From Escherichia coli (lineage in GTDB: Bacteria; Pseudomonadota; Gammaproteobacteria; Enterobacterales; Enterobacteriaceae): 64,000 nucleotides of DNA. The DNA lies in assembly GCF_024298765.1 (NCBI RefSeq), contig NZ_CP101210.1. One strand, given 5' to 3'. Of the stretch, positions 39,001-48,000 are shown one piece after another. The position numbers are program-made. Position 1 is the stretch's first letter. The number at the start of each line of letters is the position of its first letter.

Positions 39001-42000
39001 ATTCCACCTCTTTAATCTGCAAGACGGGCATGAAGCCGTCTGTGAAGTGCCCGATGCTGACGGTTCGGTGATCTTTACTTTAAAAGCAGCACGTACTGGC
39101 AACACGATTACTGTGACTGGTACGGGCGAGGCGAAGAACTGGACACTGTGCTTGCGCAATATTGTGAAAGTAAATGGTCTGCAAGGCGGTTCGCAGGCTG
39201 AAAGTGAGCAGGGACTGGTGGTGACTCCTCAAGGGAATGCGCTGACAATTACGTTGTAATCTATTGAAGAATGCCGGATACGAATGGTTTTGTGTCGTAT
39301 CCGGTAAATAATCTCACATCTGGTAATAAATATTTCTTCCATCGTATTTGCGAGCATGATCACGATTATTCATCACGAAAATGTGATCTGTGCTGAAAAA
39401 TATCCCTTAACCGCCTTGCTTTGTTTTATCACTGTCCGGATTACGGACAGATTTTAGTATTGTTGTGAAATTATTCTGCTTTATATTTACCCTCAGAGAT
39501 GGCAACTGAAGCTCTTCCATATGGGGCTTCTTAATCTGTGATAAGGGTAAAAAATGCAAATGATTACCTCGCGACAAAACAGATTATTACGATTCCTTTT
39601 ACCTCGAAGGGAATATACGACTATTGTTACGATTGCCGGCTATTTAAATGTTTCGGAAAAAACCATTCAACGTGATTTACGTTTACTTGAGCAATGGCTG
39701 GGACAATGGAGAATAAATGTTGAGAAGCGTGCTGGCGCGGGTGTGATGTTAAGCGCGGAGAATATTGCTGATTTGCTGCATCTTGATCATTTGTTGGTGG
39801 CAGAATGTGAAGAGATTGATGGTGTAATGAATAATGCCAGGCGCGTTAAAATAGCGTCGCAGTTATTAAGTGAAACACCGAATGAAACGTCGATCAGTAA
39901 ATTGTCAGAACGCTACTTTATCAGCGGAGCCTCTATTGTTAATGACCTGAGAGTAATTGAGTCCTGGCTTGCGCCGTTGGGGTTATCATTGATCCGCAGC
40001 CCAAGTGGTACGCATATTGAAGGTAGTGAAGGGCAAGTCCGACAGGCAATGGCATTACTGATTAACGGCATTATTAACCATAATGAGCCGCAAGGTGTCG
40101 TGTATTCACGTCTGGATCCCGGAAGTTATAAAGCATTAGTCCATTATTTTGGAGAAGAAGAGGTGTTATTTGTCCAGTCATTGTTACTGGATATGGAAAA
40201 TGAATTAAGTTGGTCTTTGGGAGAACCTTATTACGTTAACATTTTTACTCACATCCTTATTATGATGTATCGCAACACGCACGGGAATGCGTTATCAAGA
40301 GAAGAAGATCAAACCAGGCAATATGATGAAAATATCTTTAATGTTGCCAGTCAGATGATTCATAAGATAGAACAACGAATTGCACATACATTGCCCGATG
40401 ATGAAGTCTGGTTTATTTATCAATATATCATTTCATCAGGTGTGGCGATTGATGGACAAAAAGATGTTAGCATTATTTCACATATGCAGGCCAGCAATGA
40501 AGCGCGTCTGATTACCTGGCGTTTAATTACGGTATTCAGTGACATCGTGGACTGCGATTTTAGTGAAGACAGCGCATTATATGATGGCTTATTGGTGCAT
40601 ATTAAACCGCTGATTAACCGACTAAATTATCGTATTCATATCCGTAATCCATTGTTGGAAGATATTAAAGCAGAACTAGCGGATGTCTGGCGGTTGACGC
40701 AATATGTGGTGAATCAGGTATTTAAAACCTGGGGTGAGAATGCAGTGAGCGAGGATGAAGTAGGTTACCTGACCGTTCATTTTCAGGCTGCGATGGAGCG
40801 GCAAATTGCCCGTAAACGCGTATTACTGGTCTGTGCAACCGGAATCGGAACTTCGCATCTACTGAAAAGTCGTATTCTGCGAGCATTTCCTGAATGGACG
40901 ATTGTTGATGTTATTTCAGCAGCGAATTTATCACAGGTTTTGCCTGACAATATCGAACTGATTATTTCGACCATTAATTTGCCTACAGTCACTATGCCGG
41001 TCGCTTATGTTACCGCTTTTTTTAATGATGCCGATATTAAGCGGGTCACTGAAATGGTGATTACGGAAAAATTACATCATGCGACATCTCGGGTCGTTGA
41101 AATTTAATGTCAGAATTTTATGAGGTATGACGAATGGACATAACAAAAATCCTGAATACGAATCGCGTTATTTTAGATATGCAAGCGACGAATAAAGAGG
41201 AGGCGATTGAAGAATTAACTAATCTTCTCAAAAAAGATGGTGCGATCGATTGTCGGGAAACCTTTATTAAAGATGTCTGGCAGCGCGAAGCGGAAGGCTC
41301 GACTGGTTTTGAAAATCATATTGCGATCCCGCATGGTAAATCTTCAGCTGTGATTAATACTACGCTGGCAATTGGCCGTACCCGGCAGGATATTCCCTGG
41401 GAAACGCTGGATGGCAGTAGCGTGCGCTGTATTATTTTATTTGCGGTACGTCTTGAAGATCAAAATACCACCCATATCCGTTTACTTTCCCAGGTCGCGG
41501 GCGCGCTGGCGGATGATGACATCATAGAACAATTGTTAGTTGAGACGAGTCCGCAAAAAATCATTGATCTCTTTAGTCAGTATGCACAATCCGATGTCTG
41601 CTAAATAACAGGGAGTATGTCATGAATATTGTCTGTGTTGCCGCCTGTACGGCGGGTATTGCTCATACCTATATTGCTCGTGAAAAGTTAATCAAAGGAG
41701 CAAAAGCTCTGGGTCATACCATTAAAGTTGAAACCCAGGGAACCATTGGTACAGAAAATGAATTACAGGCGGCAGATATCTCTGCTGCTGACGTCGTGAT
41801 TCTTGCTGTAGATGTGAAAATAAAAGGAGAAGAACGCTTCACCAATAAACGTATTGTGCGAGTAAAGACAGAGATCGTCATTAAATCGCCCGTTCAATTT
41901 CTTGAAAAGGTCGAAAAATCACTGGGAAACAAATGATCCTTATACTGGAGGGATCTTAATATGAAAGACAATAAAATTCCGGTTTCACAGGAAATTAAAA

Positions 42001-45000: not shown

Positions 45001-48000
45001 AAAAGTCGACATATCAACAATTTGTCTCATGCGTTGTGGCGCTTATCGAGCAGATTAGGCGGGACGTTCAACGACCGATGCTGACAGGGATCGCCTTACC
45101 CGGCAGTATCTCGCCACTCACTGGCCTGATTAAAAACGCGAATATTCAGGTGATTAACGGTCATGCGTTACAGGCTGATTTGCAGCAATTGCTTGGGCAA
45201 CCGGTGGTGATAGCCAATGATGGTAACTGTTTCGCGCTATCAGAAGCTTGCGACGGTGCCGGGCAAGATTATGACGTGGTATTTGGTATTACGCTTGGTA
45301 CGGGCTGCGGCGGTGGCATTGCCATCAAGCAACGACCGTTTATAGGGGCCTGGGGAAATGCTGCCGAATGCGGTCATATCACGTTGCCAGGCTATACGGA
45401 GCAGGAAGATGGTCCATCAGTCAGTTGCTATTGCGGCAAACACAACTGCGTGGAGTCGTTTGTTTCCGGCAGCGGTTTTAGTGAACGCTATCAACAGATG
45501 ACTGGTAACTTGCTCACTCCTGCGGCGATTGTCACCCTGGCACAACGTGGTGATGCTTGTGCCATGCAGCAGGTGGCACGTTTTCGCCAACAGCTTGCCC
45601 GCACGCTGGCAACCATCGTTAATGTTGTTGACCCTGGCGTGATTGTGATCGGCGGCGGGCTTTCGAATGTGGAACTGCTTATCACCGATCTGAACGCAGA
45701 AGTCGCTCCACTGGTTTTCACCGATCAATTCACCACTCCCATTGTAAAAGCACAGCACGGCGACAGTAGCGGAATGCGTGGCGCTGCCTGGCTTGCTATG
45801 CGCAACGGAGAAGCCAATGAAACGTTCACAAATTAATTATGTTATTGATAAAGCACATGCCATTGCGCAGACCTTCCGCGTTTGTTTGCCAGAGTTCGCC
45901 TATTTTACGGTGGATGACTGGCTGCAGCGGGAACGGGATAACTGGCAAGAAGTGGTCGACTTACAGCTCGGTTGGGATATCACCGATTTTGGTCGTGGTG
46001 ATTTCAACCAAACGGGACTAACACTGCTAACGATGCGCAACGGCGCGCTGGGGTCGGCGGCATATCCAAAACCGTATGCTGAGAAAATGTTGCAGATCCA
46101 ACAAGATCAGCAGACTCCCTGGCATTTTCACACCCACAAAATGGAAGATATCCTCAATCGGGGCGGTGGAGACTTATGCATGCAGTTGGCCTGGGCCAAC
46201 GAAGCCAGTCTCTGTGATGATCAACGAGTCATTACCGTGAGTGTTGATGGTCAGCGGCGTACCATGAAACCTGGTGAAACGCTGGTGCTAAAGCCGGGGC
46301 AGGGCATTTGCCTGCCGCCGCGTCTGTATCATCGCTTCTGGGCGGAAAAAGCGTTTGTTCTCGGCTGGGAAATTTCGATGGTAAATGATGACCAACACGA
46401 TAATTATTTTCTTGAGCCGGGAGGACGTTTTCCGGCGATAGAAGAAGATGAACCGGTAAAATGGTTATTGTGCAGTGAGTATGCTGTTTTGCGGTAATAG
46501 CGGGGACGCTAACGTTGATATCCGTTAGCGCCCGCGTATTTACTGCACCGGCTCCGTCGATGTAACTTCGCCACTGGAAACGACGCCTGCATTCATGGTT
46601 TGAGTCACTTGCTGCTTTGTGGCGTTCATGGCATGCAATTGCCCGCTAACCGTAGGTTTCAGCGGGATATTGGCCTGAATATCGCCGCTGGCGGTAAGCT
46701 GAATATTGCCGTCGCCAGTCAACGGTAATTCAGGCCATCCCCAATGTTGCAAAATATTCACCGGCACACCGCGTCCATTCAGGCTGATATGGGTCTGACG
46801 TTGTGGCGTTTGTGAAACACTGGCGGTGGCTTCCAGAATGCCTTTTTCAGTAAATGCACTCAGTTCGCTGATATTCACCGTGCTGCTGTTGGCAGTTAGC
46901 GCCAGCGACGGACGACGGACATCAACACGATTGAATGTCGCGGCGGCGGCATTCAGATTCGCCGAGCCACTCCAGACGCCCCATTTATGATCGGTAACCA
47001 GCGTCAGATTGGCACCGTAACCATCGAGCGCGGTGAGCTGCCACGGGAAGTCAGGGTCGATATCAATGATCAGATTGCGGCTGGCGCTAAATCTCTTCAG
47101 TTGCAGGCTGTTTAACCAACCGGGTGTCGTTTCCATCCACAACTGTTGCCAGTTTTTGGGCAAGGTATATTCCAGTCCGGCAATTGCCGCATCATCGAGG
47201 ATCAGCGTTTTCCCGTCGCGTTGCCAGTTTCCTGACGTTCTGACCATACCCCCTTCCCAGCGGCTGGTGAACTGGCGCAGTGCTACGCCCTGCGGGGAAA
47301 ATTCCGCGTTTATAATCGGATCAAATAAATGCAGCGAGCCATAAATAAACTCGCTGGCGTTCATCGACAGTTTACCTTCCTGTGTCTGCCAGTCATCTTT
47401 ACTGAAGGTCATGTTGCGCAAGCTGAGATCGAGGTCGGCCACCGCCCAGTCCGGACCTTGCAAACGAGCGTCGATGACTTCCAGGCGACCAATCTGCAAC
47501 GACGGGACAGAGCGTAATGGCGCAAAGAAATCGGTTAGCGATTTTTCGCTTTGTAGACGGATATCCGCCAGCCGCAGATTTTCCACTTGCCAGCTGCCGT
47601 CGGCGTTACGCTGCGCGTTTCCGGTTAATGTCCCGCGGGCGATGTCGGCACCCAGGTTAGTCAGCGTAACGCGATCGTTATCAATACTGCCTTCAATCAG
47701 TACATTGGTGGCAGGAACATCATTGAGCGAAAGCGATCCGGCACTAAACTGAATCTGCGCCTTCGTACCCAGCACTTTACCGGCTTCAGGTGACCACGGA
47801 ACCACGCCGCCATTTACTCGCTGCGCGCTTAGTTTCCATTCGCTATTCGGGCTATTAAACGCCATATCACGCAGTTGCAGACGATCGGCTTTGAACGGTA
47901 GCGGCGCGGTCTGGTCGGTGAGATTCAGCGTCCCGTTTTCCAGCAGGATGGTATCGACATGGCGTGGTTCGGTCAGTTGCCGACTGCTTAGCGCAATGTC

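What the first reader, a model, noticed from the sequence alone, without database searches (positions are those of the whole stretch)
39554..46497. Accessory PTS/aldolase/kinase/cupin islet inserted in the core between yicI and yicH
Eight co-directional genes (PRD activator, EIIA, EIIB, EIIC of the fructose subfamily, two class II ketose-bisphosphate aldolases, a ROK kinase and a cupin isomerase-like protein) sit where K-12 has yicI directly beside yicH. This gene content matches my recollection of the frz operon described in extraintestinal pathogenic E. coli as a fitness locus; that identification is from memory, not a search. The substrate is, as far as I recall, still not defined, and the tandem aldolases plus cupin suggest an unusual ketose.
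Basis: partly seen in the sequence, partly recalled or inferred. Interest (0 to 1): 0.5.

Follow-up and report, generated by a model that had tools for sequence, protein, structure and literature searches.

The report
Known frz sugar operon of E. coli
This 7.2-kb stretch is the already described frz operon, a sugar-uptake and sugar-splitting gene set of unknown substrate carried by about 30% of complete E. coli genomes; it looks like an old resident of this chromosomal slot that K-12-like strains lack, not a recent insertion.

Summary
Window 39554-46497 holds eight intact, tightly packed, co-directional genes: a PRD/Mga-type activator, EIIA, EIIB and EIIC of the fructose PTS family, two class II aldolases, a ROK kinase and a cupin of the D-lyxose/D-mannose isomerase family. 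They lie between yicI and yicH.

The segment is 99.4% identical over 7.27 kb to strain BEN2908, at the coordinates a 2026 paper lists as the frz operon. Its EIIC gene (frz orf4) is used as an APEC typing marker.

- **Distribution in E. coli:** 1,606 of 5,426 complete genomes carry it, always at this site. 3,814 genomes have yicI and yicH contiguous; in the K-12-type and EDL933 loci read they are 52 bp apart.
- **"Inserted" is the weak word:** the same operon sits in or beside the same slot in four other genera of Enterobacteriaceae. Its synonymous divergence is as saturated as that of the flanking core genes. It has no mobility genes or flanking repeats.
- **Core module:** activator, PTS and two aldolases recur as far as Firmicutes, and Listeria lmo2133-2138 is the reported homolog.
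- **Substrate:** none was found in the literature I could search.

Interest is low.

The parts
36941..39259 (+). yicI (alpha-xylosidase), the left flanking core gene
   Evidence: ORF; annotated yicI in BEN2908 and strain 104.
39273..39304 (.). REP-like hairpin just after yicI. It is the last element shared with frz-negative genomes, so it marks the left boundary.
   Evidence: Sequence compared with the K-12-type empty site. Homology to frz-negative genomes stops at about 39282-39304 (those genomes cover query positions 1-583).
39305..39553 (+). frz leader and promoter region. Blocks conserved across genera are TATTTGCGAG (39345-39354), TCAC (39360-39363), AAAATGTGATCTG (39378-39390), the inverted repeat TGTCCGGA...GGACA (39433-39449), TTTAGTATTGTTG (39453-39465) and a -10-like TATATT (39482-39487). 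I infer a weak, activator-dependent promoter with an operator just upstream of the -35 position.
   Evidence: Alignment A3 of E. coli, three Citrobacter, a soil MAG and Mangrovibacter. The inverted repeat was also flagged as terminator-like, but its stems are invariant and its loop varies. No Rfam family matched. The function is inferred, not shown.
39554..41107 (+). frzR: a PRD-containing transcriptional activator of 517 aa, with HTH_11, Mga, PRD1, PRD2 and an EIIB(Gat)-like domain, and no C-terminal EIIA-like domain
   Evidence: Pfam. H233, H349 and C427 are invariant in alignment A2. The Paenibacillus ortholog keeps a C-terminal extension of about 165 aa that the enterobacterial proteins lack; I did not scan that extension for domains. 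No CAT RNA-binding domain was detected, and PDB matches cover only the LicT PRDs and the AtxA/AcpB HTH region.
41134..41604 (+). EIIA of the fructose/mannitol type (156 aa), with the motif HIAIPHG
   Evidence: PF00359 and TIGR00848 above cutoff; translation.
41622..41936 (+). EIIB of the fructose type (104 aa), with the motif CTAGIAHT (the position of the phospho-cysteine)
   Evidence: TIGR00829 100 bits against 76.85; translation.
41961..43052 (+). EIIC of the fructose family (363 aa). This gene is 'frz orf4', the APEC typing marker.
   Evidence: TIGR01427 311.6 bits against 157.55. PMC8896058 names frz orf4 as 'PTS fructose transporter subunit IIC'.
43064..43915 (+). Aldolase 1: class II (PF01116), 283 aa. 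It is the faster-evolving of the pair and scores below every NCBIfam cutoff.
   Evidence: D81-H82, E131, E133, H178 and H208 are invariant in alignment A1. Best solved relatives are KbaY/AgaY/YdjI-type aldolases.
43996..44856 (+). Aldolase 2: class II (PF01116), 286 aa, in the PRK08185 subfamily
   Evidence: NF006042 525.9 bits against 405. It keeps the same metal and catalytic residues. It is only 32% identical to aldolase 1.
44904..45836 (+). ROK-family sugar kinase (310 aa by the RefSeq start; the longest ORF starts at GTG 44871), with no DNA-binding domain
   Evidence: PF00480. The best NCBIfam match is Mak fructokinase, 318.7 bits against a cutoff of 443. DIGGT, ExGH and CxCGxxxCxE motifs are present. 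Nearest solved structures are NagK and the unnamed Salmonella entry 2AP1.
45817..46497 (+). Cupin of the D-lyxose/D-mannose isomerase family (226 aa by the RefSeq start; the longest ORF starts at GTG 45778)
   Evidence: PF07385 290 bits; NF051472 271.9 bits against a cutoff of 350. It aligns end to end (about half the residues identical by eye) with the solved E. coli D-lyxose isomerase 3KMH/3MPB, with the HFH..E and H metal motif conserved.
46500..46535 (.). GC-rich hairpin between the cupin stop and the yicH stop. I infer a shared bidirectional terminator. It marks the right boundary; locus-specific DNA ends at 46538.
   Evidence: Sequence; inverted repeat I4; comparison with empty sites.
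46540..48249 (-). yicH (AsmA family), the right flanking core gene
   Evidence: the ORF runs to 48273 from a GTG; RefSeq annotates 1710 nt.

Best explanation
This is the frz operon. It is a single-promoter unit in which FrzR, a DNA-binding PRD/Mga-type activator, controls a fructose-family phosphotransferase transporter (EIIA, EIIB, EIIC) and four cytoplasmic enzymes.

**Proposed mechanism (inferred except where stated).**
- Phosphate passes from PEP through EI and HPr to EIIA (His in IPHG), then to EIIB (Cys in CTAGIAHT), and onto a still unidentified sugar as it crosses EIIC.
- The sugar is most likely a ketohexose other than D-fructose, or a mannose/lyxose-configured sugar.
- The two catalytically intact class II aldolases cleave the resulting ketose phosphate (or the bisphosphate after a second phosphorylation) to DHAP plus a triose.
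- The cupin isomerase and the Mak-like ROK kinase form an optional side branch. It converts the free aldose form to the ketose and phosphorylates it.
- FrzR is switched by PTS phosphorylation. HPr~P acts on PRD2 (H349) when better sugars are absent. Dephosphorylation of the EIIB-like Cys427 and of PRD1 H233 follows when the Frz transporter is busy.

**What is shown here:** gene content, gene integrity, conserved catalytic and phospho-site residues, identity with the published locus, population frequency and cross-genus synteny.

**What comes from the literature:** transcription as one operon, a fitness effect under oxygen and nutrient restriction, and promotion of type 1 fimbriae.

**History.** The operon is an old occupant of the yicI|yicH slot in Enterobacteriaceae. 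It has been kept in about 30% of complete E. coli genomes and is absent from K-12-type genomes, more likely through loss than through a recent ExPEC-specific gain.
For: **Identity.** 99.4% over 7,274 nt to BEN2908 and 100% to strain 104. The gene table is identical. The published frz coordinates coincide with the match.

**Function of the parts.**

**Operon and phenotypes.** PMC8777976 and PMC12928451, both quoting Rouquet 2009.

**Frequency.** 1,606 of 5,426 genomes carry it, one copy each except one genome with two matches. 3,814 genomes have the contiguous empty site.

**Old residence in this slot.**
- The operon lies between yicI and yicH in C. werkmanii, Citrobacter sp. FP75 and C. freundii. 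In K. aerogenes it follows yicI, with a further GH4/EIICB/RpiR islet before yicH.
- It lies next to yicH-xanP in Phytobacter and downstream of yicJI in Mangrovibacter.
- dS between E. coli and Citrobacter is 1.1-4.5 for frz genes and 0.9-1.8 for the flanks.
- Within E. coli, frz dS (0-0.2) is of the same order as the flanks (0.06-0.08).
- The low GC of frzR/IIA/IIB is shared by the orthologs, for example IIB GC3 of 0.33-0.40.
- The locus has no flanking direct repeats or mobility genes.

**Modular core.** Activator, IIA, IIB, IIC and the two aldolases recur in Pectobacterium, Brenneria, Acerihabitans, Marinilactibacillus, Clostridia, Anaerostipes and, with the order rearranged, Facklamia; Paenibacillus keeps the PTS with a single detected aldolase. 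ROK recurs in Anaerostipes and Facklamia. Lyx_isomer recurs in Marinilactibacillus (Pfam) and as cupin homologs in Peptostreptococcaceae, Lachnospiraceae and Lactonifactor (neighbouring genes). The Listeria lmo2133-2138 homology is stated in PMC2996996.
Against: - No substrate is known. I could not read the original paper, and no later paper in the library names a sugar.
- The pathway order is inference. Characterised ROK kinases phosphorylate free sugars, not ketose-1-phosphates.
- Lyx_isomer enzymes act on unphosphorylated sugars, which a PTS does not deliver.
- Lineages lacking both ROK and cupin (Pectobacterium, Brenneria) show those two genes are not essential to the core.
- Why two different, both apparently active, aldolases are needed is unexplained.
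- The direction of the gain or loss event within E. coli is not resolved. I did not map presence onto phylogroups. The only 'outgroup' empty site I obtained (E. fergusonii) turned out to be E. coli-derived DNA.
Confidence: 0.85

Rival explanations
1. Recent horizontally acquired ExPEC islet. On this reading frz was inserted into an ancestrally empty yicI-yicH junction of E. coli, and its presence marks pathogenic lineages.
For: - It is absent from K-12 derivatives, strain HS and EDL933.
- The first 2.5 kb has 39-43% GC, against about 51% in the flanks.
- The literature reports association with virulent avian strains: 5% of non-pathogenic strains against up to 75% of the most virulent group.
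- The slot is a hotspot that holds a different islet in C. amalonaticus.
Against: - The same operon sits in or beside the same slot in four other genera.
- Its dS is saturated like that of the core flanks, so no recent donor is visible.
- The low GC of the 5' genes is conserved in the orthologs.
- There is no integrase, tRNA, IS element or direct repeat at its borders.
- It also occurs in isolates from possum, gull, wastewater and pig ETEC.
- One ST648-like genome shows loss by deletion actually happening.
Confidence: 0.15
2. Mainly a sensory or regulatory PTS. On this reading the Frz proteins do not feed carbon into metabolism. They act through phosphorylation state or a metabolite signal on the fim switch and on stress fitness.
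For: - The reported phenotypes are regulatory: more fimS in the OFF orientation in the mutant, and survival in late stationary phase under oxygen restriction.
- No growth substrate is reported in any paper I could search.
- E. coli has other cryptic fructose-like PTS paralogs (my background knowledge).
Against: - The locus carries a full transporter plus four enzymes, with all catalytic and phospho-acceptor residues intact.
- The transporter-aldolase core is conserved from Enterobacteriaceae to Firmicutes. That fits selection for catalysis.
- In Lactonifactor the aldolase, kinase and cupin set is combined with an ABC importer instead of a PTS. This points to a catabolic pathway rather than PTS signalling.
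Confidence: 0.12
3. A variant of an already solved pathway. One candidate is the D-tagatose PTS route of Klebsiella oxytoca and Bacillus licheniformis (fructose-family PTS, tagatose-1-P kinase, GatYZ). The other is a mannose route like B. subtilis manR-manP-manA.
For: - Fructose-family EII components, a PRD activator and class II aldolases of the GatY/KbaY branch are present.
- The EII proteins also score well against the mannosylglycerate transporter MngA model.
- The cupin family isomerises D-mannose/D-fructose and D-talose/D-tagatose type pairs (and my background knowledge).
Against: - There is no PfkB-type 1-phospho-ketose kinase, no GatZ/KbaZ partner and no phosphomannose isomerase in the operon.
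- Both aldolases score far below the tagatose-bisphosphate aldolase equivalog cutoffs, for example 179 and 229 bits against 443.55.
- The descriptions of the tagatose and mannose systems are from my memory. I did not check them here.
Confidence: 0.1

Closest known systems
frz operon of avian ExPEC strain BEN2908 (Rouquet et al. 2009, J Bacteriol 191:4427; cited through PMC12928451 and PMC8777976)
   Same: It has the same eight genes in the same order, at the same site between yicI and yicH, with 99.4% nucleotide identity.
   Different: Only allelic differences: 0-2% per gene, with the cupin 97.8% identical at the protein level. The window's allele is 100% identical to chicken strain 104 and human strain SCU-171.
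Listeria monocytogenes lmo2133-lmo2138 (fructose-like PTS plus two class II aldolases)
   Same: The core module is the same: regulator, EIIA, EIIB, EIIC and two PF01116 aldolases. The literature names it the homolog of frz, and it is lineage-variable in Listeria as frz is in E. coli.
   Different: Neither a ROK kinase nor a cupin is listed in that cluster. I did not align the Listeria sequence here. Its substrate is also unknown in the papers I found.
PRD-containing activators of the MtlR/LicR/ManR class
   Same: FrzR has HTH, Mga, PRD1, PRD2 and an EIIB(Gat)-like domain, with conserved His and Cys phospho-sites.
   Different: FrzR lacks the C-terminal EIIA-like domain of the classical members. 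The Paenibacillus ortholog keeps a C-terminal extension of about 165 aa in that position, which I did not scan for domains. RefSeq's name, 'BglG family transcription antiterminator', does not fit, because there is no CAT RNA-binding domain.
E. coli O157:H7 D-lyxose isomerase (PDB 3KMH/3MPB)
   Same: Both are Lyx_isomer cupins. They align over the full length (about half the residues identical by eye), and the metal-binding motif is conserved.
   Different: It is a paralog. EDL933 has an empty yicI-yicH site, so that gene must lie elsewhere in its genome. The frz cupin scores below the NCBIfam equivalog cutoff.
D-tagatose PTS pathway (K. oxytoca, B. licheniformis) and gat/aga class II aldolases
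   Same: The logic is the same: a fructose-family PTS followed by cleavage with a GatY/KbaY-branch class II aldolase.
   Different: The kinase is ROK rather than PfkB. A second full aldolase replaces GatZ/KbaZ. A cupin isomerase is added. The comparison rests partly on my memory.

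Membership tests
frz operon (Rouquet 2009) | Eight genes in the order activator, EIIA, EIIB, EIIC, aldolase, aldolase, ROK kinase, cupin | tested here: met
   the gene table is identical to BEN2908.
frz operon (Rouquet 2009) | Location between yicI and yicH, with near-identity to the BEN2908 sequence | tested here: met
   99.4% over 7,274 nt at BEN2908 3991923-3999197. The published frz coordinates are 3991960..3999186.
frz operon (Rouquet 2009) | Transcribed as one operon, with fitness and type 1 fimbriae phenotypes | not testable with these tools
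   Known only from the literature. The tight spacing, a single conserved leader and one terminal hairpin are consistent with it.
PTS fructose (Fru) family Enzyme II | EIIA, EIIB and EIIC domains above curated cutoffs, with phospho-acceptor His and Cys | tested here: met
   TIGR00848 128.7 against 103.5; TIGR00829 100 against 76.85; TIGR01427 311.6 against 157.55. Motifs IPHG and CTAGIAHT are present.
PTS fructose (Fru) family Enzyme II | Equivalence to a transporter of known substrate (FruA, FrvA/B, MngA and others) | tested here: not met
   All equivalog models score below their cutoffs, for example PRK10712 297 against 793 and PRK09765 249.6 against 763.
PRD-containing transcriptional activator (MtlR/LicR/ManR class) | N-terminal HTH and Mga DNA-binding domains, two PRDs and an EIIB-like domain | tested here: met
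   Pfam. H233, H349 and C427 are invariant.
PRD-containing transcriptional activator (MtlR/LicR/ManR class) | C-terminal EIIA-like regulatory domain | tested here: not met
   The protein ends after the EIIB-like domain at 517 aa. Only the 683-aa Paenibacillus ortholog has a longer C-terminus, whose domain content I did not test.
BglG/SacY-type antiterminator (the RefSeq product name) | N-terminal CAT RNA-binding domain acting on a RAT/terminator leader | tested here: not met
   There is no CAT domain, and HTH_11 and Mga take its place. GlcT, LicT and BglG models match only the PRD part and score far below their cutoffs. No Rfam leader was found.
Class II ketose-bisphosphate aldolase (PF01116) | The fold family plus Zn and catalytic residues (the Asp-His pair, two Glu and two further His) | tested here: met
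   PF01116 at 254 and 305 bits. D81, H82, E131, E133, H178 and H208 are invariant in both paralog groups.
Class II ketose-bisphosphate aldolase (PF01116) | Equivalence to FBP or tagatose-bisphosphate aldolase | tested here: not met
   Aldolase 1 is below every cutoff. Aldolase 2 passes only the PRK08185 subfamily, named 'hypothetical protein', at 525.9 against 405, and the general cbbA subfamily.
D-lyxose/D-mannose isomerase (cupin) | Lyx_isomer domain with the metal-binding motif; equivalog score | tested here: inconclusive
   PF07385 at 290 bits, and the motif is conserved against 3KMH. NF051472 scores 271.9, below its cutoff of 350. Activity was not tested.
ROK sugar kinase | ROK domain with ATP and Zn motifs and no HTH; equivalence to Mak or NagK | tested here: inconclusive
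   PF00480 at 249 bits, with the motifs present. Mak scores 318.7 against 443 and NagK 245.9 against 380.
Mobile genomic island | Integrase or transposase, tRNA or att site, and flanking direct repeats | tested here: not met
   There are none within or at the borders of 39305-46538. The tRNA-Sec at 35162-35256 and its integrase belong to a separate island upstream of yicJ.

The most novel reading that the evidence does not exclude
The frz module may encode a not yet described PTS-dependent catabolic route for a rare sugar. Its invariant core would be a pair of dissimilar, both catalytically intact class II aldolases, one perhaps acting on a ketose-1-phosphate or as a C4 epimerase. That core is conserved from Enterobacteriaceae to Firmicutes, including Listeria. 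In addition, K-12-type E. coli may have lost the module by deletion. On this reading the 10-nt GAGATTGATG in the 52-bp yicI-yicH spacer is a scar of frzR, as the junction in strain HS-02 suggests.
Probability: 0.3. Interest if true: 0.5.

Novelty: already known. Interest (0 to 1): 0.2.

Why it matters
The locus is a published ExPEC/APEC fitness determinant, and its EIIC gene is used as a typing marker. Finding it in a window is therefore routine annotation.

Two open points remain, and both have modest scope.

- **The sugar is still unknown.** This analysis narrows the question to a conserved core of PTS plus two aldolases, with optional ROK and cupin genes. It also supplies a set of orthologous operons in tractable organisms (Citrobacter, K. 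aerogenes, Anaerostipes, Listeria) in which to look for the substrate.
- **The "ExPEC-specific acquisition" view is probably wrong.** The operon is an ancient occupant of the yicI|yicH slot across several genera of Enterobacteriaceae. Its association with virulence may reflect lineage (retention against loss) rather than gain of a virulence trait.

Tried and rejected
- **Original paper.** I tried to read Rouquet 2009 (PMC2698472), but it is not held. All statements about phenotypes are second-hand.
- **Substrate searches.** I searched under frz, yicI/yicH, the Listeria locus tags, Z5688 and frzR. I found no substrate, and most 'frz' hits are Myxococcus chemotaxis or frizzled genes.
- **E. fergusonii as outgroup.** I rejected it. 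Its yicI and the junction are 96-100% identical to E. coli, while yicH beyond about 300 bp is only 67-85% identical. That stretch is imported E. coli DNA, not an independent ancestral state.
- **Flanking repeats or mobility genes.** None were found.
- **RNA leader element.** None was found in Rfam. The terminator-like hit at 39432-39450 is better read as a conserved DNA inverted repeat.
- **Haplotype split near the junction.** I tested whether flank divergence separates frz+ from frz- haplotypes. It does not. The last 400 nt of yicI and the last 200 nt of yicH are hypervariable in all comparisons.
- **Degenerate second aldolase.** I considered whether one aldolase is a GatZ-like non-catalytic partner and rejected it, because both keep all metal and catalytic residues.
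- **Other Escherichia species.** The 90% protein clusters cannot separate them from E. coli.

Full report
**What is there**

Gaps between the first six genes are 11-80 bp, and with the RefSeq starts the last two genes overlap by 20 nt.

Domain searches give these assignments:
- A 517-aa regulator with HTH_11, Mga, two PRDs and an EIIB-like domain.
- EIIA, EIIB and EIIC that pass the curated fructose-family models (TIGR00848, TIGR00829, TIGR01427).
- Two class II aldolases (PF01116) that are only 32% identical to each other.
- A ROK kinase without a DNA-binding domain. Its best model is the manno/fructokinase Mak, but it scores below that cutoff.
- A cupin of the D-lyxose isomerase family (PF07385).

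RefSeq annotation of identical loci starts the ROK gene at 44904 and the cupin at 45817.

All the expected functional residues are present:
- EIIA has IPHG and EIIB has CTAGIAHT.
- The kinase has the ROK ATP and Zn motifs.
- Both aldolases keep the Asp-His pair, two Glu and two His of the metal site across all orthologs.
- The cupin aligns end to end (about half the residues identical by eye) with the solved E. coli D-lyxose isomerase 3KMH, with the metal motif conserved.
- FrzR keeps H233, H349 and C427.

**Identity**

A megablast of 39260-46540 against 5,426 complete E. coli genomes finds the segment in 1,606 of them, and 1,601 hold at least 80% of it. Each has one copy, except one genome with two matches, and all but one of the 1,611 matches are chromosomal.
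- It is 100% identical to chicken strain 104 and human strain SCU-171.
- It is 99.4% identical over 7,274 nt to BEN2908 at 3991923-3999197.
- A 2026 genome paper on BEN2908 lists the frz operon at 3991960..3999186 and summarises the original work: fitness, adhesion and internalisation, and presence rising from 5% in non-pathogenic strains to 75% in the most virulent avian group (PMC12928451).
- A review describes frz as one operon needed for late-stationary survival under oxygen restriction and for keeping the fim switch ON (PMC8777976).
- The EIIC gene is the 'frz orf4' APEC typing marker (PMC8896058).

I could not read the original 2009 paper.

**Boundaries and the empty site**

Frz-negative genomes match the window up to about 39282-39304, which is the REP-like hairpin after yicI. 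In the K-12-type (OV2) and EDL933 loci the yicI and yicH stop codons are 52 bp apart.

A 280-bp query spanning that empty junction is contiguous in 3,814 genomes. Together with the frz-positive genomes, this accounts for almost the whole collection. The locus-specific DNA is 39305-46538 (7,234 bp).

It has no flanking direct repeats, integrase or IS element. The tRNA-Sec at 35162-35256 and its integrase belong to a separate island upstream of yicJ.

**Was it inserted?**

The comparative data argue against a recent insertion.

| Organism | Locus | Arrangement |
|---|---|---|
| Citrobacter werkmanii | L007 | yicJ-yicI-frz-yicH-xanP, no ROK |
| Citrobacter sp. FP75 | L008 | yicJ-yicI-frz-yicH-xanP, all eight genes |
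| C. freundii | L090 | same slot, no ROK; this YicH is indexed in 289 blocks of the collection |
| Klebsiella aerogenes | L096 | yicJ-yicI-frz, then a GH4/EIICB/RpiR islet, then yicH |
| Phytobacter | L094 | frz next to yicH-xanP |
| Mangrovibacter | L009 | yicJI upstream of frz |
| Raoultella terrigena | L095 | frz at a different site |

- Protein identities of the frz genes to E. coli (64-96%) track those of the flanking genes (70-97%).
- Synonymous divergence between E. coli and Citrobacter is saturated for frz (1.1-4.5) just as for the flanks (0.9-1.8).
- Within E. coli, frz alleles differ by dS 0-0.2, comparable with the flanks.
- The low GC of frzR, EIIA and EIIB, which could be taken as a sign of foreign origin, is conserved in the orthologs.

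The simplest reading is that frz is an old occupant of this slot in Enterobacteriaceae, and that it was repeatedly lost. The slot is also a hotspot: C. amalonaticus carries a different sugar islet there. I could not fix the direction of the event inside E. coli.

**An unexplained detail**

Strain HS-02 is clonal with an ST648 strain. There are no substitutions in 8.8 kb of flanks. The only differences are three single-base indels and one mismatch, which lies at the deletion junction. HS-02 has lost 6.7 kb of frz and keeps the promoter and the first 268 nt of frzR.

- Its junction, GAGATTGATG|TTTAC, reproduces the 15-mer next to the yicH stop in K-12-type empty sites. EDL933 has GAGATTGATT.
- The 10-mer occurs only once in frz-positive loci, inside frzR at 39812-39821. 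About 0.15 matches are expected by chance per 64 kb on both strands, which scales to roughly 0.02 for the 7.2-kb locus.

There are two possible readings. The K-12-type spacer may be a deletion scar of frzR. Alternatively, a chance 10-mer may have guided an illegitimate recombination with an empty allele. I leave this open.

**How it probably works**

The invariant core across Enterobacterales and Firmicutes is regulator, EIIA, EIIB, EIIC, aldolase 1 and aldolase 2.
- The core is present in Pectobacterium, Brenneria, Acerihabitans, Marinilactibacillus, uncultured Clostridia, Anaerostipes hadrus and, with the gene order rearranged, Facklamia. Paenibacillus keeps the PTS but shows only one detected aldolase.
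- Listeria lmo2133-2138 is named as the homolog in the literature.
- The ROK kinase recurs in Anaerostipes and Facklamia.
- The Lyx_isomer cupin recurs in Marinilactibacillus (Pfam). Cupin homologs at 38-46% identity lie beside the aldolase in Peptostreptococcaceae, Lachnospiraceae and Lactonifactor.
- In Lactonifactor the aldolase, kinase and cupin set is joined to an ABC importer instead of a PTS.
- Some lineages lack ROK, the cupin or both.

From this I infer the following:
- A fructose-family PTS takes up an unidentified sugar. It is probably a non-fructose ketohexose or a mannose/lyxose-configured sugar.
- The aldolase pair cleaves the resulting ketose phosphate. One member may instead act as a C4 epimerase or on a 1-phosphate.
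- The cupin and the kinase form an optional branch that brings the free aldose form into the pathway.

FrzR belongs to the DNA-binding MtlR/LicR/ManR class. It lacks the terminal EIIA-like domain, and the RefSeq label 'BglG antiterminator' does not fit because there is no CAT domain.

The leader has blocks conserved across genera: an invariant inverted repeat TGTCCGGA..GGACA just upstream of a weak -35, and a TATATT -10. These look like an activator-dependent promoter. No Rfam element is present.

All of this pathway and regulatory logic is inference. No substrate is reported in any paper I could search.

**Verdict**

The identification as frz is supported. 'Inserted' is not supported, because frz is an old and frequently lost resident of this slot. 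The novelty class is 'already known' and interest is low. The residual open question is the identity of the sugar and the role of the two aldolases.

Noticed in passing
L002 5295-5570 (E. coli HS-02) against L003 3560-3616 (K-12 type) and window 39812-39821: An ST648-like genome has a 6.7-kb deletion inside frz. Its junction, GAGATTGATG|TTTAC, is the same 15-mer as in the 52-bp yicI-yicH spacer of K-12-type frz-negative genomes. The 10-mer otherwise occurs only inside frzR. It may be a deletion scar or a microhomology-guided recombination.
   Followed up: partly
L089 9900-14200 (E. fergusonii GCA_020861595.1): In this E. fergusonii genome, yicI and the yicI-yicH junction are 96-100% identical to E. 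coli, but yicH beyond about 300 bp from its stop is only 67-85% identical. The yicJI side, including the empty junction, therefore looks imported from E. coli by recombination.
   Followed up: partly
L091 11930-16899, L092 and L096 11661-15829: The yicI|yicH slot is a hotspot. C. amalonaticus carries a different sugar islet there (PTS EIICB, GH4 glycosidase, RpiR regulator, MFS). K. aerogenes carries that islet in tandem with frz.
   Followed up: no
window 39340-39490: The frz leader has blocks conserved across genera: TATTTGCGAG, TCAC...AAAATGTGATCTG, an invariant inverted repeat TGTCCGGA(N4-6)GGACA followed by TTTAGTATTGTTG, and TATATT. These are candidate FrzR and possibly CRP sites. The simple scan calls the inverted repeat terminator-like.
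   Followed up: partly
window about 19260-35260 (by offset from L093): Upstream of yicJ lies a selC-associated island: tRNA-Sec at 35162-35256, a tyrosine integrase, IS1, IS66, IS3 and IS91 remnants, a 1,165-aa autotransporter and a TonB-dependent receptor. It is separate from frz.
   Followed up: no
window 39500-42000 against 42000-46500: Composition steps inside the operon. frzR, EIIA and EIIB have 41-44% GC (GC3 0.34-0.42), while EIIC through the cupin have 50-56%. The low GC3 of EIIB and EIIA is also seen in the Citrobacter and Mangrovibacter orthologs, so it is an old feature rather than a sign of recent transfer.
   Followed up: partly
L010 11078-12121 and L011 11233-12273: In Pectobacterium and Brenneria, a protein of about 347 aa with no Pfam match follows aldolase 2, in the position that ROK and the cupin occupy in E. 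coli.
   Followed up: no
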